A DNA stretch of 64,000 nucleotides from Escherichia coli (GCF_003334815.1 NZ_QOWO01000012.1), one strand, 5' to 3'. Positions 7,173 through 44,493 are shown, numbered from the stretch's first letter. The notes: generated from the sequence alone by a model not told the origin. Translations and numbers: made by a program.

Positions 7173-10185
<3,013 letters not shown>

Positions 10186-10190
10186 ACACT

Positions 10191-10414
10191 GCCGGATGCG
10201 GCGCGAGCGCCTTATCCGGCCTACGGGTCGGCAACAGTTGTAGGCCTGATAAGACGCGACAGCGTCGCATCAGGCATTGATTGCCGGATGCGGCACAAGT
10301 GCCTTATCCGGCCTACAGGTCGGCAATAGTTGTAGGCCTGATAAGACGCGACAGCGTCGCATCAGGCATTGATTGCCGGATGCGGCGCGAGCGCCTTATC
10401 CGGCCTACGGGTCG
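10191..10414. repeat. Tandem BIME: about 2.4 copies of a 92-bp unit of paired inverted REPs
   Basis: gccggatgcggc...cttatccggcctac...gtaggcctgataagacgcgacagcgtcgcatcaggca recurs with period 92 (unit starts 10191, 10283, 10375). Confidence 0.9.
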
Positions 10415-10451
10415 TGCATCCGACAACACCGAATTTACAGGAACACAGAAC

Positions 10452-11276
10452 ATGCAAAACATTACTCAGTCCTGGTTTGTCCAGGGAATGATCAAAGCCA
10501 CCACCGACGCCTGGCTGAAAGGCTGGGATGAGCGCAACGGCGGCAACCTGACGCTACGCCTGGATGACGCCGATATCGCACCATATCACGACAATTTCCA
10601 CCAACAACCGCGCTATATCCCGCTCAGCCAGCCCATGCCTTTACTGGCAAATACACCGTTTATTGTCACCGGCTCGGGCAAATTCTTCCGTAACGTCCAG
10701 CTTGATCCTGCGGCTAACTTAGGCATCGTAAAAGTCGACAGCGACGGCGCGGGCTACCACATTCTTTGGGGGTTAACCAACGAAGCCGTCCCCACTTCCG
10801 AACTTCCGGCTCACTTCCTTTCCCACTGCGAGCGCATTAAAGCCACCAACGGCAAAGATCGGGTGATCATGCACTGCCACGCCACCAACCTGATCGCCCT
10901 CACCTATGTACTTGAAAACGACACCGCGGTCTTCACTCGCCAACTGTGGGAAGGCAGCACCGAGTGTCTGGTGGTATTCCCGGATGGCGTTGGCATTTTG
11001 CCGTGGATGGTGCCCGGCACGGACGAAATCGGCCAGGCGACCGCACAAGAGATGCAAAAACATTCGCTGGTGTTGTGGCCCTTCCACGGCGTCTTCGGCA
11101 GCGGACCGACGCTGGATGAAACCTTCGGTTTAATCGACACCGCAGAAAAATCAGCACAAGTATTAGTGAAGGTTTATTCGATGGGCGGCATGAAACAGAC
11201 CATCAGCCGTGAAGAGTTGATAGCGCTCGGCAAGCGTTTCGGCGTTACGCCACTCGCCAGTGCGCTGGCGCTGTAA
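10452..11276 (+). CDS. rhaD: Rhamnulose-1-phosphate aldolase RhaD
   Basis: ORF 10281..11276 runs through the REP array; true start is the ATG at 10452 ([25 protein letters not shown]...), 274 aa, class II aldolase. Confidence 0.93.
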
Positions 11277-41121: not shown

Positions 41122-41130
41122 TGTGAAACT

Positions 41131-41207
<77 letters not shown>

Positions 41208-41211
41208 TTAA

Positions 41212-42477
41212 TTAAGCTTCAGCCGCCAGCATCTCTTTCTTACGTTGGCTAATACGCTTAACCAGCATTACGGAAACCACCGCACCACTGAATGCGAAGC
41301 AGGCCATAATGCCAAACACGATTTTGTAGCCAATAATCCCCGGATTTAAATCCAGAATGTAGCCATACAGACTGAAGCAGAACATCGCCGGAGCGTAACC
41401 AATAAAGCTACCCAACGCCATCGCCGCACCTGTTTTATTTTCAGCAATTTTTGCTTCGCCGATAGGTGCAAAAAATACGGCTCGCTGTGTAAAGACTATC
41501 GCGCCAAAGCCCAGCGTACATGCCATCCCTAAATAGACCGGCATACTTTCGTGCGGCAGCATAATCAACAGTACGAGCGCAGCGGTACTAATGATAAAGG
41601 TGTAGCATAGATATTTACTTGGCGATTTCAGGATCTTATCTGAAATCATGCCACCAATCGGTCCACCAATCATTTTCAGACAGTATTGGTTAATGATGCC
41701 GTAAGCCCCCACCAGCGCAACGGGCAATAGATAGATGTTTTTCAGGAATGGAATGAAGAATGTCAGGCCACAGTAAACCGCGTAAACGAAGAAGACGTTA
41801 AAAGCGATAAGCCAGATAGTTTTGTCTTTCAGCACCGAGGTCATACTGGTGTTTTTCGATGCTCCGTCTTCTTTTTTCACCTCAACGGACGGTGCCTCTT
41901 CTTTGTCATTCAGGACAAAGAAAATAATAATGCCTACGGCAATCACAATAAGGGAATAGAACCAGATGCCTGCTTTAAAACCTAATAAGCCACTGCCAAA
42001 CCAGGTAAATACTGCCAACGCAGAAAATGCCACCACGGTATCGACAATGCCACGCCCTGTTTCGAAGAAGCCAAACAACCGACCTTGTTGTTCGCTATTG
42101 CCCAATCGACTTACCGACTTGAGCAAGACCGGCCAGTTCATCATGTCGCAAGTAACGCCAAATAGCGCCCAGACAAAGAGGATGCCCCAATACCCCGGCA
42201 TTGTCGTCAAATAAACACCCAGTAATCCTGTCGCAATGAGTGAGAATGACATGGTGTATCTGCGCGGTAGTTTATCGGCAAAATAAATAGACAGAAAAAA
42301 GCCCACTGTGGTGACAAATGAGTTTACCGACATAGCATTACCAATTTGACCATTGGTCAAATGGAAATATTCCTGCATCGGGATATAAAACGCATCTTTC
42401 AGCGACGGTAATTTATAAATTGTACCGCCACACAGTGTTAATAGACTAAATAACGCCCATTTCTTTTTCGTGAGCAT
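41212..42477 (-). CDS. yihN: MFS transporter YihN
   Basis: 421-aa 12-helix-type hydrophobic ORF recognised as YihN. Confidence 0.85.
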   Translation of the reverse strand: MLTKKKWALFSLLTLCGGTIYKLPSLKDAFYIPMQEYFHLTNGQIGNAMSVNSFVTTVGFFLSIYFADKLPRRYTMSFSLIATGLLGVYLTTMPGYWGILFVWALFGVTCDMMNWPVLLKSVSRLGNSEQQGRLFGFFETGRGIVDTVVAFSALAVFTWFGSGLLGFKAGIWFYSLIVIAVGIIIFFVLNDKEEAPSVEVKKEDGASKNTSMTSVLKDKTIWLIAFNVFFVYAVYCGLTFFIPFLKNIYLLPVALVGAYGIINQYCLKMIGGPIGGMISDKILKSPSKYLCYTFIISTAALVLLIMLPHESMPVYLGMACTLGFGAIVFTQRAVFFAPIGEAKIAENKTGAAMALGSFIGYAPAMFCFSLYGYILDLNPGIIGYKIVFGIMACFAFSGAVVSVMLVKRISQRKKEMLAAEA

Positions 42478-42578
42478 AACATCCCCTAAGCGATTTTTAA
42501 AATCACTGTTTTAAAGGCAATAAGATACCGACCATTCATATGGAATGGTTTTATTAACTGCGTATGAGTTAAAACTTA

Positions 42579-43559
42579 TTAGTGGTTCAGAAGATGGTTT
42601 GCCTCTTGTTTGATTTGTTGTAGTACGTTACGCACATGATTTATCTGATTAATTGCATCTTCTTTTTCTTTACGTAACCGCGCATCCAGTAAATGATTTT
42701 CTGGCAATGGTGTTTCACTCATCTGGCGATAAGGGATCCACGGATTATCATCTTCGTCTTCAAAGCGGAACGCCGGCGCATAGTAATCAACCTCTTCTTC
42801 CAGGCCATATGCCGTCACCTGCGGCTCATCATCACCCAGGCAGATAAGGTGCGTTAATAACGCTTTGAACGGCATATCACCCTGACCTGAAATACAGGCT
42901 TTATGACCCAGGCCACCCGGTTCTTTAACGATCAAGGCATCTTTGATATGGACCTGGGTAATATGCGGTGCCATCGTTTTTAAAGCGTCGATGGGATGCT
43001 CATTTGCATTGATCATGTTCGCAAAATCAAACAGTAAGGAAAGAGATTCCATCTCACTTTCTTTGACCAGCGACACCAGCTCATGACTTTTTAAATCTTC
43101 ATGCTGCTCGATCGTAAAAGTCAGGCCGCTGTCCTGATACGTTTCCCGTACATAGGCAATGTCGTTAGCGATAATCGATAATACGTCGCGCAAATTACCT
43201 TCATAACGTGGATAAAAACGTACGGACGATGCCCCAGTTTTCAACGCGATGGCGACGGCTTCGTCAATAGATGCCTTATCTGAGGCGCTGGTTTCAATAT
43301 GAATATCAAGGTTCAGACGGCGGGCTTTATCCCCAAAGGCAGAGAGTTCTTTATCGTCCATATTACCAAGAGAAAAACGCTCGCCATCGAGAACATGGAT
43401 TTTGACGCCACGTAGATTATTTTCACTTGCGATATCAAGTAAATCAGCAGGCAACACTCTTTCCAGCCGCATATTTAAATGAAAGGCATAAGCATGTAAA
43501 TAAAGAGGAAGAGTGTCGACACGTTGTAGAATCTTTCTTGCGTTATTTATTGTCACCAT
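42579..43559 (-). CDS. yihM: Sugar-phosphate isomerase/epimerase-like (xylose-isomerase-like TIM barrel) protein YihM
   Basis: 326-aa ORF recognised as YihM. Confidence 0.83.
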   Translation of the reverse strand: MVTINNARKILQRVDTLPLYLHAYAFHLNMRLERVLPADLLDIASENNLRGVKIHVLDGERFSLGNMDDKELSAFGDKARRLNLDIHIETSASDKASIDEAVAIALKTGASSVRFYPRYEGNLRDVLSIIANDIAYVRETYQDSGLTFTIEQHEDLKSHELVSLVKESEMESLSLLFDFANMINANEHPIDALKTMAPHITQVHIKDALIVKEPGGLGHKACISGQGDMPFKALLTHLICLGDDEPQVTAYGLEEEVDYYAPAFRFEDEDDNPWIPYRQMSETPLPENHLLDARLRKEKEDAINQINHVRNVLQQIKQEANHLLNH

Positions 43560-43566
43560 AAAACAC

Positions 43567-44277
43567 CTACAGATTAATGATGAGGTCTACGGCCTCAAAT
43601 CGCCAATATTCAATATCTATTTGGACAATATTGCCTTGCTGGTCGGCGCGATGCTTTTCAATTAAGATCGCTGGCATACCCGCAGAACCGCCAAGATACT
43701 TGCTGATATCGCCCGGCATTCTGACGGGTTTGAAAATCAATTTTTTTACTACCGTCTCTTTTTGGTAGCACTTTTCCCAGACTGCAGAAAATGAGTGGTT
43801 TTCAAGTTGTTCAATAAAGCCCGGAGCAACTTCAGGATTAATATATGTTTCGTGATAGAAAACTTTATGTCCTTCCAGCGCCCCCCAGCCGGTGATGCGA
43901 TAGAGTTCAGTTGATGGCGTCACTGCAATCAGTGGCGCGAGCGTCTCGGGAATATCGCTGGTACGGTTTTTCTCGGTAAACCCCCAGGAAGGCTCTCGCC
44001 CTTGCTCAATTGCGGCCCGCTGAAAGCTCGCCGACAGCTCCGGACTGTAATTAAATCGCGGCTGGGTCACGAACCACCCCTTACGATCCTTACGGAAGAT
44101 TTTGGATTCTGCCTCGAGGTTCAACAACGCCTGGCGCAGCGTCATACGTTTAATGCCCAGCAGTTCTCCCAGCTCTCTTTCTGAAGGGAGTTTTCCACCC
44201 GGCGTGGTGATGCCATCTTTCAACCACCGATCCAGTTTCTCTTTTGCATTTTCTACGGTGGATTGATTCTCCGCCAT
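43567..44277 (-). CDS. yihL: GntR-family transcriptional regulator YihL
   Basis: 236-aa ORF with N-terminal winged HTH (LPSERELGELLGIKRMTLRQAL) and UTRA-like C-domain. Confidence 0.85.
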   Translation of the reverse strand: MAENQSTVENAKEKLDRWLKDGITTPGGKLPSERELGELLGIKRMTLRQALLNLEAESKIFRKDRKGWFVTQPRFNYSPELSASFQRAAIEQGREPSWGFTEKNRTSDIPETLAPLIAVTPSTELYRITGWGALEGHKVFYHETYINPEVAPGFIEQLENHSFSAVWEKCYQKETVVKKLIFKPVRMPGDISKYLGGSAGMPAILIEKHRADQQGNIVQIDIEYWRFEAVDLIINL

Positions 44278-44443
44278 TATTTAATCCTTTTGGTTTAAAC
44301 CAGATGAAGCATCTTACGCTTACGCCAAAAAAGAAAGCAATTAACGGCGTATGACTTTGCAGATAATTGTGACAAAGCTCTCTATTGACGTAACCACAGA
44401 CTTATAAGGGAGATACTCGCATTGGTGTGCGCTCACGACAGGC

Positions 44444-44476
44444 AAAAAAAAACCTGCCATCGCTGGCAGGTTTTTT
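44444..44476 (-). terminator. Intrinsic terminator of typA
   Basis: Minus strand: cctgccagcgatggcagg followed by a T9 run, about 20 nt after the typA stop. Confidence 0.85.
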
Positions 44477-44493
44477 ATGACTAAAAAACGAAA

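What the first reader, a model, noticed from the sequence alone, without database searches (positions are those of the whole stretch)
41212..44277. Uncharacterised yihL-yihM-yihN module next to the sulfoquinovose island
A GntR-family regulator, a xylose-isomerase-like TIM-barrel protein and an MFS transporter are arranged as a compact minus-strand unit (gaps of 7 and 101 nt) with a 216-bp upstream region before typA. This has the architecture of a self-contained substrate-inducible uptake-plus-conversion system for an unknown sugar or sugar acid. It sits immediately beside the sulfoquinovose genes and ompL, so it could act on a related sulfo-sugar or plant-derived substrate, but nothing in the sequence identifies the ligand.
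Basis: partly seen in the sequence, partly recalled or inferred. Interest (0 to 1): 0.5.

Follow-up and report, generated by a model that had tools for sequence, protein, structure and literature searches.

The report
Self-contained yihLMN catabolic operon, substrate unknown
The three E. coli genes yihL, yihM and yihN are a real, widely conserved and portable repressor, enzyme and transporter unit that shuts itself off through one perfectly conserved 12-bp DNA site. It is independent of the neighbouring sulfoquinovose genes, and its substrate is still unknown, though gene neighbours in other bacteria hint at a small nitrogen-containing phosphate compound.

Summary
In detail: yihN (41212-42477), yihM (42579-43559) and yihL (43567-44277) lie on the minus strand, with gaps of 7 and 101 nt and 216 nt before typA.

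**Supported.** This is an autonomous regulated uptake-plus-conversion module.
- L-M-N is kept in the same order in 52 of 53 species genomes whose YihM is at least 55% identical, in many unrelated flanks and under strong purifying selection.
- A 12-bp palindrome, TGGTTTAAACCA (44291-44302), lies just before yihL in 53 of 54 loci.
- It falls inside the single strong published YihL ChIP-exo peak.
- A CRP-like site sits at a conserved position upstream.
- YihM is a confidently modelled xylose-isomerase-like TIM barrel that keeps the metal and base residues.

**Not supported.** There is no link to sulfoquinovose.
- Some genomes have the module without the island, and some have the island without the module.
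- It is absent from the SQ-induced genes listed in the held tables of a 2025 RNA-seq study.

**Inferred only.** The substrate may be a small aminated organophosphate or phosphonate-like compound.
- YihL is closest to PhnR, and YihN is a remote GlpT relative.
- Neighbours of YihM homologues elsewhere include 2-AEP-type ABC transporters, two non-homologous histidinol-phosphatase-like enzymes, phosphate transporters, RidA and MocR regulators.

This is an ordinary kind of system with an orphan ligand.

The parts
43567..44277 (-). yihL: GntR/HutC-subfamily repressor (winged-helix domain plus UTRA effector domain). Its closest curated family is PhnR.
   Evidence: ORF. NCBIfam TIGR03337 phnR scores 183 bits, below the cut-off of 297. 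PDB relatives are YvoA/NagR and DasR. Orthologues carry Pfam GntR+UTRA. ChIP-exo shows autoregulatory binding.
42579..43559 (-). yihM: metal-dependent xylose-isomerase-like TIM-barrel enzyme of an uncharacterised subfamily, with a conserved C-terminal extension (about residues 255-326).
   Evidence: Pfam PF01261, E=2e-8. AF2 model pLDDT 96. Foldseek finds only 10-17% identical TIM barrels. Invariant residues E151, H153, E154, D178, N181, H204, R114, R265, S281, E298. The family profile hits Art22 at 1.8e-19 and AsbF at 2.5e-15.
41212..42477 (-). yihN: 12-TM MFS permease, a remote relative of the organophosphate:phosphate antiporters.
   Evidence: ORF. NCBIfam PgtP subfamily scores 72.5 bits. 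The family profile hits only GlpT (4e-9) and SLC37A4 in the PDB. Published data show reduced dye accumulation in a yihN deletion strain.
44291..44302 (.). YihL operator: perfect 12-bp palindrome TGGTTTAAACCA, 14-25 nt upstream of the yihL ATG and overlapping the predicted transcription start.
   Evidence: Only exact copy in the 64-kb window. Present before the yihL orthologue in 53 of 54 loci, with variable flanks. Maps inside the ChIP-exo peak 4058436-4058459, signal/noise 60.
44311..44340 (-). Predicted sigma-70 promoter of the operon: -35 TTGCTT (44340-44335), 18-nt spacer, -10 TAAGAT (44316-44311).
   Evidence: Read from the sequence. A TTG and a -10-like hexamer keep the same register across orthologous loci. 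The stricter consensus scan did not call it, so this is a prediction.
44368..44383 (.). CRP-like site AGAGAGCTTTGTCACA (8 of 10 consensus positions), centred about 70-72 nt upstream of the predicted start (class I position).
   Evidence: A TGnGA-N6-TCACA match of at least 8/10 occurs in 47 of 61 loci, in nearly all of them 72-76 nt (range 66-79) upstream of the palindrome. A published analysis lists yihLM as a predicted Crp-activated unit.
44447..44476 (-). Intrinsic terminator of typA (13-bp perfect stem followed by a T run). It insulates the yihL promoter from typA read-through.
   Evidence: Inverted repeat I1 and sequence. Also covered by the Rfam STnc370 match at 44441-44509.
42478..42578 (-). 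yihM-yihN spacer (101 nt): no terminator and no minus-strand promoter detected, and no significant RNA structure.
   Evidence: Consensus scan. RNA fold z = -1.5. In orthologues this spacer varies from about 20 to 230 nt, always on the same strand.
41122..41211 (.). REP-type palindromic elements between the convergent ends of ompL and yihN; this is the 3' boundary of the module.
   Evidence: Sequence. Including this stretch produces 126,948 megablast places, median 21 per genome. Sub-threshold naRNA4/REP matches.

Best explanation
yihLMN is an autonomous, horizontally portable catabolic operon.

**Proposed mechanism**
1. One promoter lies upstream of yihL. It is insulated from typA by a strong terminator and probably helped by CRP at a class I site.
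2. YihL, a HutC-type GntR repressor, keeps the promoter shut. A YihL dimer binds the single palindrome TGGTTTAAACCA, which overlaps the transcription start.
3. A small-molecule inducer bound by the UTRA domain would release YihL.
4. YihN, an MFS permease remotely related to organophosphate:phosphate antiporters, then imports the substrate.
5. YihM, a mononuclear-metal TIM-barrel enzyme, converts the substrate in one step into a mainstream metabolite. Its predicted metal site is E151, D178, H204 and E252, with an E-x-H base motif as in AsbF-type dehydratases. The reaction would go through a metal-stabilised enolate, either as an isomerisation/epimerisation or as a beta-elimination.

**Substrate.** It is not a sulfo-sugar. 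The most likely class is a small anionic compound that is probably phosphorylated (or a phosphonate) and probably carries an amino group.

**Shown and inferred**
- Shown: the anatomy, module conservation, operator conservation, in-vivo YihL binding (published), the fold, the conserved catalytic residues, and independence from the SQ island.
- Inferred: repression polarity, the CRP role, co-transcription of yihN, direction of transport, reaction type and substrate class.

**Confidence by part:** architecture and regulation about 0.85; substrate class about 0.35-0.4. The single confidence figure of 0.6 is for the statement as a whole.
For: **Module conservation**
- L-M-N occurs in the same order in 52 of 53 species genomes with YihM at least 55% identical.
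- These span Enterobacterales, Aeromonas, Photobacterium, Neisseriaceae and Acinetobacter, in unrelated flanks.
- dN/dS is 0.02-0.06 for all three genes wherever dS could be computed.

**Regulation**
- The palindrome is unique in the window.
- It is invariant before yihL orthologues in 53 of 54 loci while its flanks vary.
- It is kept even where YihL is only 41-44% identical, as 2-4 tandem copies in divergent promoter regions.
- Published ChIP-exo found one strong YihL site (signal/noise 60) that covers the palindrome, plus two weak ones.
- A CRP-like site is positionally conserved, and a published analysis predicts yihLM to be Crp-activated.
- The typA terminator is clear.

**Enzyme**
- Pfam PF01261, AF2 pLDDT 96, TIM-barrel fold matches.
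- Invariant E151, H153, E154, D178, N181, H204, aligned to the corresponding motifs of 3tva, Art22 and AsbF.

**Substrate class**
- YihL's best family is PhnR, the 2-aminoethylphosphonate regulator, at 183 bits.
- The YihN profile hits only GlpT and the glucose-6-phosphate exchanger in the PDB.
- The 63%-identical Pseudogulbenkiania YihM sits with a PhnR-like regulator (267 bits), a PhnS/PhnT2-like ABC transporter and a Na/Pi-PhoU transporter.
- Rhizobial and Marinobacterium homologues are coupled to an IMPase-type HisN-like phosphatase. Crenobacter instead has a non-homologous HAD-type histidinol-phosphatase-like enzyme.
- In Marinobacterium the HisN-like gene and a PiT+DUF47 phosphate transporter share the operator-bearing divergent region.
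- MocR-type (amine-sensing) regulators replace YihL in rhizobia, Paracoccus and an actinobacterium.
- RidA is inserted in the Photobacterium and Proteus versions.
Against: - No ligand, inducer or reaction has been measured for any family member.
- All clues to the substrate class come from gene neighbourhoods of homologues at 45-63% identity or from a sister subfamily (RidA). Their specificity may differ from that of E. coli YihM.
- The E. coli trio has no phosphatase.
- In the profile alignment, the two phosphate-binding arginines of GlpT are not matched by arginines in YihN. YihN is also far below the curated PgtP cut-off (72 bits against 408).
- The transporters paired with YihM homologues are chemically heterogeneous: MFS, PotD-type ABC, Opp-type ABC, polar-amino-acid ABC and NCS1.
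- Co-transcription of yihN is not demonstrated. One paper lists the unit as 'yihLM', and the yihM-yihN gap is 101 nt.
- The promoter hexamers are weak and were not called by the consensus scan.
- The module is missing from about 18% of complete E. coli genomes and is hit by insertion sequences (IS) in several strains. It is therefore dispensable.
Confidence: 0.6

Rival explanations
1. Sugar-phosphate scavenging module. YihN works like UhpT or GlpT and imports an uncommon, nitrogen-free sugar phosphate in exchange for phosphate. YihM, acting like the L-xylulose-5-phosphate 3-epimerase UlaE, epimerises or isomerises it directly into a glycolytic or pentose-phosphate intermediate, so no kinase is needed. 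YihL senses the sugar phosphate, as many HutC regulators do.
For: The RefSeq name is 'sugar phosphate isomerase/epimerase family protein'. The only solved relatives of YihN are GlpT and the glucose-6-phosphate exchanger. UlaE and ketose 3-epimerases are among the fold matches. A one-enzyme module makes sense if the substrate arrives already phosphorylated. A CRP site fits use as a carbon source. Phosphate transporters and phosphatases sit next to homologues.
Against: YihM scores only 15 bits on the L-ribulose-5-phosphate 3-epimerase model, against a cut-off of 200, and is 10-17% identical to all epimerases. This rival does not explain several recurring neighbours: PhnR-like and MocR-type regulators, 2-AEP-type ABC transporters, histidinol-phosphatase-like enzymes of two different folds, and RidA.
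Confidence: 0.22
2. Accessory to sulfoquinovose metabolism. The module takes up and converts a related sulfo-sugar or plant sulfolipid product and belongs functionally with ompL-yihOPQRSTUVW.
For: Physical adjacency in E. coli K-12. An anion-type MFS and a sugar-isomerase-like fold would be compatible with a sulfonated sugar.
Against: The adjacency is lineage-specific. The trio occurs without SQ genes in many genera and at the same typA-yihX position in Pseudocitrobacter, Raoultella and Enterobacter. The SQ island occurs without the trio in E. coli WB61. Prevalence differs: 4423 against 4018 of 5426 genomes. YihL ChIP-exo shows no site in the SQ genes. A 2025 study defines the cassette as ompL-yihOPQRSTUVW, and yihLMN are not in its held tables of SQ-induced genes although neighbouring ompL is up 2^7.3-fold. 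No homologue context contains sulfonate enzymes.
Confidence: 0.04
3. Module for an amino-sugar, Amadori or opine-type compound. YihM acts like FrlC (fructoselysine 3-epimerase) or as an isomerase-deaminase on an N-substituted ketose or amino sugar. RidA clears the imine or enamine product where it is present.
For: FrlC and FrlR are precedents for a xylose-isomerase-like enzyme paired with a HutC regulator (established knowledge). Homologue contexts include an opine/peptide-type SBP, a polar-amino-acid ABC transporter plus an aminotransferase-domain protein, a DAO-type oxidase and an AlaDH/PNT-domain protein, MocR regulators and RidA.
Against: No kinase or deglycase partner occurs in any locus. 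This rival does not explain the recurrent phosphatases and phosphate transporters, or the PhnR/PhnS/PhnT2 similarity. The contexts with DAO or AlaDH belong to homologues of only 35-41% identity.
Confidence: 0.1
4. Cryptic or decaying remnant in E. coli. The module is silent and functionless in this species and persists only through recent ancestry.
For: It is absent from 1003 of 5426 complete genomes. IS903B, IS4, IS30 and ISEc31 insertions are seen in several strains, and WB61 has a clean deletion. No phenotype linked to a substrate has been reported.
Against: All three reading frames are intact in 4238 genomes. Purifying selection across genera is strong (dN/dS 0.02-0.06). The operator and CRP site are conserved. 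YihL is expressed well enough to give a strong ChIP signal from its tagged native locus. A yihN deletion changes dye accumulation.
Confidence: 0.07

Closest known systems
PhnR with phnSTUV/phnWX, the 2-aminoethylphosphonate regulon of Salmonella (NCBIfam TIGR03337)
   Same: YihL's best curated family is PhnR (E=5e-54, full-length). Regulators next to YihM homologues in Pseudogulbenkiania and Crenobacter score 267-280 bits, close to the cut-off, and sit beside PhnS/PhnT2-like ABC transporters. Both are HutC-type repressors of a small uptake-plus-catabolism unit.
   Different: YihL is below the PhnR cut-off (183 bits against 297). No phnW, phnX or any known C-P-cleaving enzyme occurs in any locus. 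The transporter in E. coli is an MFS, not an ABC system. The enzyme is a xylose-isomerase-like TIM barrel that is unknown in phosphonate pathways.
NagR (YvoA) and DasR: HutC-subfamily GntR repressors with palindromic operators (dre sites)
   Same: These are the closest solved structures to YihL (E=5e-13 and 1e-10, full-length). They share the winged-helix plus UTRA architecture and the operator logic of a palindrome with TGGT...ACCA arms (established knowledge for dre sites), placed to block the promoter.
   Different: Sequence similarity is low. The effectors of NagR and DasR are GlcN-6-P and GlcNAc-6-P, while YihL's effector is unknown. ChIP-exo suggests that the YihL regulon in E. coli is a single operon.
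Xylose-isomerase-like TIM-barrel enzymes: Art22 isomerase (8z1i), AsbF 3-dehydroshikimate dehydratase (3dx5), ketose 3-epimerases, UlaE
   Same: Same fold. The metal and base motifs align: E151-x-H153 with the E-x-H of AsbF, D178-x-x-N181, and H204-x-K206.
   Different: Only 10-17% identity and TM-scores of 0.5-0.6. No curated family cut-off is reached. YihM has a family-specific C-terminal extension with invariant R265, S281 and E298. Its reaction is unknown.
GlpT, UhpT, PgtP, SLC37 and AepP: organophosphate:phosphate antiporter family of MFS
   Same: These are the only solved relatives of the YihN family profile, with a full-length alignment to GlpT at E=4e-9. The best NCBIfam model is PgtP. 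AepP, a GlpT relative, is a published precedent for an MFS of this family carrying 2-aminoethylphosphonate.
   Different: The relationship is very remote: single-sequence phmmer finds nothing in the PDB. In the alignment, the positions of GlpT's phosphate-binding arginines hold Ser and Tyr in YihN. The substrate and the mode of transport are untested.
Sulfo-EMP cassette ompL-yihOPQRSTUVW, regulated by CsqR
   Same: Chromosomal neighbour in E. coli K-12. Both are repressor-controlled catabolic units that include MFS transporters.
   Different: Different regulator (DeoR-type CsqR against HutC-type YihL). Their distributions are independent. No shared operator. yihLMN do not appear among the listed SQ-induced genes.

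Membership tests
GntR family, HutC subfamily (YihL) | N-terminal winged-helix GntR DNA-binding domain | tested here: met
   Full-length matches to YvoA and DasR, and matches of the HTH domain alone. Multiple GntR-family NCBIfam hits on residues about 10-75. Orthologues carry PF00392.
GntR family, HutC subfamily (YihL) | C-terminal UTRA (chorismate-lyase-like) effector domain | tested here: met
   Orthologues carry PF07702 UTRA. Alignments to PhnR, PhnF and YvoA extend to residues 216-234. A published SCOP assignment places UTRA at residues 60-234.
GntR family, HutC subfamily (YihL) | Binds a palindromic operator at its own or target promoter | tested here: met
   The perfect palindrome TGGTTTAAACCA is conserved in 53 of 54 loci and lies inside the published ChIP-exo peak with signal/noise 60. 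Binding of purified protein to this exact sequence has not been tested.
PhnR equivalog (TIGR03337, 2-AEP utilisation regulator) | Score at or above the curated cut-off (296.75 bits) | tested here: not met
   183.4 bits. YihL is a paralogue, not PhnR itself.
PhnR equivalog (TIGR03337, 2-AEP utilisation regulator) | Linked to phnSTUV and phnWX | tested here: not met
   No phnW or phnX appears in the window region or in any of the loci annotated. PhnS/PhnT2-like ABC components occur only next to distant YihM homologues, and they score below their cut-offs.
Xylose isomerase-like TIM barrel (Pfam PF01261) (YihM) | Profile match and (beta/alpha)8 barrel fold | tested here: met
   PF01261 at E=2e-8 over residues 44-238. 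AF2 model with pLDDT 96 and pTM 0.93, showing eight strand-helix units. All top Foldseek hits are members of this fold.
Xylose isomerase-like TIM barrel (Pfam PF01261) (YihM) | Glu-Asp-His-Glu metal site at the ends of strands 5-8 | tested here: met
   E151, D178 and H204 are invariant in 26 sequences reaching down to 26% identity. The strand-8 Glu (LEEE, about E252) is kept in most and is Gln in four distant members. The motifs align with those of 3tva, Art22 and AsbF. Metal binding itself has not been measured.
Ketose or sugar-phosphate 3-epimerases (UlaE/SgbU, DPEase) | Curated family score or close sequence relationship | tested here: not met
   L-ribulose-5-phosphate 3-epimerase model: 15.2 bits against a cut-off of 200. 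Identity in fold matches is 11-16%.
AsbF/QuiC-type 3-dehydroshikimate dehydratases | E-x-H motif (metal-ligand Glu plus catalytic His) and dehydratase activity | tested here: inconclusive
   The family profile hits AsbF at E=2.5e-15, with E151 and H153 aligned to its E-T-H motif. One metagenomic homologue sits next to a shikimate-dehydrogenase-like gene. Activity was not testable, and no aromatic-catabolism context is seen in the trio loci.
Organophosphate:phosphate antiporter family (GlpT/UhpT/PgtP) (YihN) | Family-level sequence relationship | tested here: inconclusive
   The YihN profile hits only GlpT (4e-9, full-length) and SLC37A4 in the PDB. However, TIGR00881 scores 72.5 bits against a cut-off of 407.75, and single-sequence searches find nothing.
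Organophosphate:phosphate antiporter family (GlpT/UhpT/PgtP) (YihN) | The two phosphate-binding arginines (GlpT R45 in TM1 and R269 in TM7; established knowledge) | tested here: not met
   In the HMM alignment these positions face Ser and Tyr in YihN. Invariant K22, K27 and K268 lie nearby. The alignment is uncertain at this level of divergence.
Sulfo-EMP (sulfoquinovose) cassette | Co-inheritance with yihO-yihW | tested here: not met
   Trio without island. Island without trio. Different prevalence in E. coli.
Sulfo-EMP (sulfoquinovose) cassette | Induction by SQ or control by CsqR | tested here: not met
   yihLMN are not in the held tables of SQ-induced genes, although ompL and yihO-U are listed at log2FC 7.3-10. 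The paper does not mention them. The tables are selections, so this is suggestive rather than final.

The most novel reading that the evidence does not exclude
The YihM family would be the signature enzyme of an unrecognised, widespread pathway for small aminoalkyl phosphate esters or diesters, or phosphonates. Candidate substrates include phosphoethanolamine-type compounds such as glycerophosphoethanolamine or serine-ethanolamine phosphodiester, and 2-AEP derivatives. The enzyme would carry out a metal-dependent cleavage or beta-elimination that has not been described for this fold. Different lineages would complete the pathway with a histidinol-phosphatase-like enzyme, a phosphate exporter and RidA. 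In enterics the system would be reduced to repressor, enzyme and a GlpT-like permease. This reading fits every neighbour seen: PhnR or MocR regulators, PhnS/PhnT2-like ABC transporters, two non-homologous amino-alcohol-phosphate phosphatases, PiT or Na/Pi transporters, RidA, and eut adjacency in Morganella. It rests on context alone.
Probability: 0.2. Interest if true: 0.7.

Novelty: new member of a known kind. Interest (0 to 1): 0.4.

Why it matters
yihL, yihM and yihN are among the remaining orphan genes of E. coli K-12. This analysis turns them into a well-defined target for finding their function.

- **One repressor, one invariant operator.** This makes a ready biosensor: a PyihL reporter.
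- **An enzyme family with conserved catalytic residues.** The family is small: about 47 clusters at 50% identity with E ≤ 1e-30.
- **A short, testable candidate list.** Aminated phosphate and phosphonate compounds, then sugar phosphates, instead of 'any sugar'.

The work also removes a misleading guilt-by-association link to sulfoquinovose.

If the substrate proves to be a phosphoethanolamine- or aminophosphonate-type compound, it would add a new enzyme chemistry to organophosphorus turnover. That chemistry would operate in gut, soil and marine bacteria.

Tried and rejected
1. **Literature on yihL, yihM, yihN and their b-numbers**. No functional study was found. yihL::kan appears only as a linked marker. 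The useful items were the ChIP-exo supplement, the Crp prediction and the dye study.
2. **Art22, the best solved relative.** Two literature searches found nothing relevant, so its reaction could not be used.
3. **Single-sequence PDB searches with YihN** found nothing even at E ≤ 10. Only the family profile reached GlpT.
4. **Metagenome scan for tandem operators** (TGGTTTAAACCA-N6-30-TGGTTTAAACCA). It returned 34 contigs, but none encodes a relative of YihL, YihM, YihN or any of 14 context proteins. These are unrelated repeats, so the regulon was not extended.
5. **Context look-ups for more distant homologues.** They were short or uninformative or heterogeneous.
6. **Two ORFs downstream of YihM in locus L074** have no Pfam or NCBIfam match and are probably miscalled.
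7. **Enterobacterial flanking genes.** These are unrelated housekeeping genes (cpxRA, yiiM, narU, tyrosine phenol-lyase, yihX). They give no functional hint beyond showing that the module is portable.
8. **A regulatory RNA or second operator in the yihM-yihN spacer.** The small hairpin there is not significant (z = -1.5) and no terminator was found.
9. **An Endo IV-like trinuclear phosphodiesterase site in YihM.** Considered and not favoured, because the conserved residues follow the mononuclear E-D-H-E pattern. It is not excluded.

Full report
**Observation**

The window at this position is E. coli K-12-like chromosome. It is 100% identical to K-12 ER2796 over 41212-44277. The ORF list shows three minus-strand genes:

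| Gene | Coordinates | Length |
|---|---|---|
| yihN | 41212-42477 | 421 aa |
| yihM | 42579-43559 | 326 aa |
| yihL | 43567-44277 | 236 aa |

RefSeq annotation of identical DNA gives the same names. It places the trio between ompL plus the sulfoquinovose genes yihO-yihW and typA-glnALG.

**Boundaries and promoter region**

- *Upstream boundary.* typA ends in a textbook intrinsic terminator: a 13-bp perfect stem at 44447-44476 followed by a T run. yihL therefore needs its own promoter.
- *Promoter.* Reading the minus strand gives a plausible sigma-70 promoter: TTGCTT (44340-44335), an 18-nt spacer and TAAGAT (44316-44311). It is too weak for the strict consensus scan.
- *Operator.* Directly after the -10 comes a perfect 12-bp palindrome, TGGTTTAAACCA (44291-44302). 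This is 14-25 nt before the ATG. It is the only exact copy in 64 kb.
- *CRP-like site.* AGAGAGCTTTGTCACA lies at 44368-44383, about 70-72 nt upstream of the predicted start.
- *Downstream boundary.* yihN is followed by REP elements and the convergent ompL.
- *yihM-yihN spacer.* It has no terminator, no minus-strand promoter and no significant RNA structure.

**Conservation of the module**

A scan of one genome per species with a YihM family alignment returned 80 loci.

- ORF clustering showed that the only recurrent partners of YihM are a YihN-like MFS and a YihL-like regulator.
- With tblastn, 52 of 53 loci whose YihM is at least 55% identical and that have room on both sides carry L-M-N in the same order and strand.
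- These genomes include Escherichia, Citrobacter, Pseudocitrobacter, Raoultella, Serratia, Buttiauxella, Morganella, Edwardsiella, Budvicia, Pragia, Aeromonas, Photobacterium, Uruburuella (Neisseriaceae) and Acinetobacter.
- The flanks differ completely. They include the eut operon in Morganella, cpxRA and yiiM, narU, tyrosine phenol-lyase, and c-di-GMP or efflux genes in Aeromonas.
- Between genera dS is saturated while dN stays low. dN/dS is 0.02-0.06 for all three genes wherever dS could be computed.

The trio is therefore a portable functional unit under selection.

**Regulation**

- *Operator conservation.* In 53 of 54 loci with a YihL orthologue, TGGTTTAAACCA lies 11-31 nt before the start codon. 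A paralogous group has TGGTTTATACCA instead. The flanking bases are not conserved.
- *Distant lineages.* The motif persists in Marinobacterium, an Oceanospirillaceae MAG and a Rhodobacterales MAG, where YihL is only 41-44% identical. There, 2-4 tandem copies fill the region upstream of L-M, which in the first three loci is a divergent region shared with an ABC-transporter operon.
- *Published experiment.* ChIP-exo of YihL-8myc in MG1655 found three sites (Gao et al. 2021, PMC8464067, supplementary file 5).
  - One is dominant: 4058436-4058459, signal/noise 60.5, nearest gene yihL.
  - Two are weak, with signal/noise about 5.
- *Coordinate mapping.* In NC_000913.3 the palindrome is at 4060422-4060433 and yihL starts at 4060447. 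The paper's coordinates are offset by 1977 nt. I checked this offset with a cspA site from the same table. The palindrome therefore corresponds to 4058445-4058456, inside the peak.
- *Reading.* YihL thus binds essentially one place in the genome, its own promoter. Its position over the transcription start argues for repression; this polarity is inferred.
- *CRP.* A CRP-like site with at least 8 of 10 consensus positions occurs in 47 of 61 loci. In nearly all of them it lies 72-76 nt (range 66-79) upstream of the palindrome. An independent study lists yihLM as a predicted Crp-activated unit. This fits a catabolic operon.

**The proteins**

*YihL.* It is a HutC-type GntR regulator. Its closest solved structures are YvoA/NagR and DasR. 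Its best curated family is PhnR, the 2-aminoethylphosphonate regulator, at 183 bits against a cut-off of 297. It is therefore a paralogue, not PhnR itself.

*YihM.*
- It matches PF01261.
- An AF2 model built on a 26-sequence alignment has pLDDT 96.
- The model matches only xylose-isomerase-like TIM barrels, at 10-17% identity.
- The family is small: 47 clusters at 50% identity with E ≤ 1e-30.
- Invariant residues include E151, H153, E154, D178, N181 and H204, plus R114, R265, S281 and E298. The last three lie in a family-specific C-terminal extension.
- These residues align with the metal and base motifs of 3tva, Art22 and AsbF, including AsbF's E-x-H. The catalytic apparatus is intact.
- No curated enzyme family is reached.

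*YihN.* It is an MFS whose family profile finds only GlpT and the glucose-6-phosphate exchanger SLC37A4 among solved structures. It is very remote from them, and the two phosphate-binding arginines of GlpT are not matched. A published screen found lower accumulation of many cationic dyes in a yihN deletion strain. That effect may be pleiotropic.

**Relation to the sulfoquinovose island**

- Pseudocitrobacter, Raoultella and an Enterobacter have typA-yihLMN-yihX-yihY-dtd with no SQ genes or ompL in between.
- E. coli WB61 keeps ompL and yihOPQR but retains only 66 nt of yihN.
- Among 5426 complete E. coli genomes, 4423 carry the module (4238 nearly complete) and 4018 carry yihS.
- A 2025 study defines the SQ cassette as ompL-yihOPQRSTUVW and never mentions yihLMN. 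Its held tables list ompL and yihO-U as induced 2^7 to 2^10-fold on SQ, but not yihLMN.

I conclude that the adjacency comes from two separate units at the same site and is not a functional link.

**Clues to the substrate (all inferred from context)**

- *Pseudogulbenkiania.* The 63%-identical YihM sits with a PhnR-like regulator (267 bits), a PhnS/PhnT2-like ABC transporter and a Na/Pi-PhoU transporter.
- *Crenobacter.* It has a PhnR-like regulator (280 bits), the same type of ABC transporter, a HAD-IB histidinol-phosphatase-like enzyme and an SMR-family (small multidrug resistance) protein next to YihM.
- *Rhizobia* (Ensifer, Rhizobium, Aminobacter, Shinella and others). They share a conserved arrangement: a divergent MocR-type regulator, then the ABC transporter, then YihM, then an overlapping IMPase-type HisN-like phosphatase.
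- *Marinobacterium.* The operator-bearing divergent region controls an Opp-type ABC transporter, a HisN-like phosphatase (283 bits) and a PiT+DUF47 phosphate transporter.
- *Paracoccus and an actinobacterium.* They pair MocR with YihM and a YihN-like MFS.
- *RidA.* It is inserted in Photobacterium (L-M-RidA-N). In Proteus it lies in RidA-N-M, with a different regulator. Both belong to a sister subfamily of YihN.
- *Morganella.* The trio abuts the eut operon.

Three features recur independently:
- two non-homologous enzymes resembling histidinol-phosphate phosphatase, that is, amino-alcohol-phosphate phosphatases;
- phosphate transporters;
- regulators and transporters of amine or aminophosphonate type.

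Together they suggest a small aminated phosphate ester (or phosphonate). A metal-stabilised-enolate reaction, either isomerisation or beta-elimination, is what the YihM active site suggests.

I hold this substrate class at about 0.35-0.4. The homologues concerned are 45-63% identical. The associated transporters are heterogeneous. Nothing has been measured.

**Verdict**

- The 'self-contained inducible uptake-plus-conversion system' reading is supported and now has a defined operator and promoter logic.
- The sulfo-sugar suggestion is not supported.
- The system is an ordinary kind, a HutC-repressed and CRP-assisted catabolic operon, whose enzyme subfamily and ligand remain orphan.
- Interest is moderate. 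It is a clean deorphanisation target with a ready-made biosensor.
- There is an outside chance that it reveals new organophosphorus chemistry.

Noticed in passing
window 44441-44509 (-): Rfam STnc370 (enterobacterial sRNA) matches the last codons of typA plus its terminator at 55.6 bits, just above the gathering score of 54. This may be a 3'-UTR-derived sRNA.
   Followed up: no
window 41122-41211: REP palindromic elements lie between ompL and yihN. Including them in a query gave 126,948 megablast places (median 21 per genome). They also give sub-threshold naRNA4 matches.
   Followed up: partly
window 41212-44277, in other E. coli genomes (hits H2-H7, H11, H33): Several strains carry IS insertions inside the module (IS903B, IS4/ISVsa5, IS30, ISEc31). 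About 18% of complete genomes lack it, and strain WB61 has a clean deletion that leaves 66 nt of yihN. The module is an accessory ('soft-core') trait in E. coli.
   Followed up: partly
L011 and L048 (both from Citrobacter sp. R56 chromosome NZ_CP069159.1); also L012/L052 and L056/L062: Some Citrobacter genomes carry two L-M-N copies. One is 82-83% identical to E. coli YihM and has the operator TGGTTTAAACCA. The other is about 61% identical and has the variant operator TGGTTTATACCA, with a YihN of a different subfamily. This suggests two related substrates with insulated regulation.
   Followed up: partly
L004/L005 (Proteus mirabilis) 7486-10975: Here the module is rearranged as RidA-MFS-YihM. 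A divergent YheO-like (PAS_6/HTH_22) regulator replaces YihL, and no TGGTTTAAACCA site is present.
   Followed up: no
window 44279 versus MG1655 (L092 position 2246): There is a single-base difference two bases before the yihL ATG: the window reads ...TTAAATAATG and MG1655 reads ...TTAAACAATG. The window is therefore K-12-like but not identical to MG1655 here.
   Followed up: no
L095-L128 (metagenome contigs): Tandem TGGTTTAAACCA copies also occur in unrelated repetitive DNA. One contig has seven copies with a 39-nt period, and another has 12 copies in 13 kb. None has yihLMN-like genes nearby, and their origin is unknown.
   Followed up: partly
L063, L066, L077, L083 (marine Gammaproteobacteria and Alphaproteobacteria): A BetA-like GMC oxidoreductase (above the choline dehydrogenase cut-off), an aldehyde dehydrogenase, an agmatinase-like ureohydrolase and an NCS1 permease recur next to the L-M-phosphatase cluster. 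In L074 the ureohydrolase overlaps the YihM gene by 4 nt. Whether they belong to the same pathway is unknown.
   Followed up: partly
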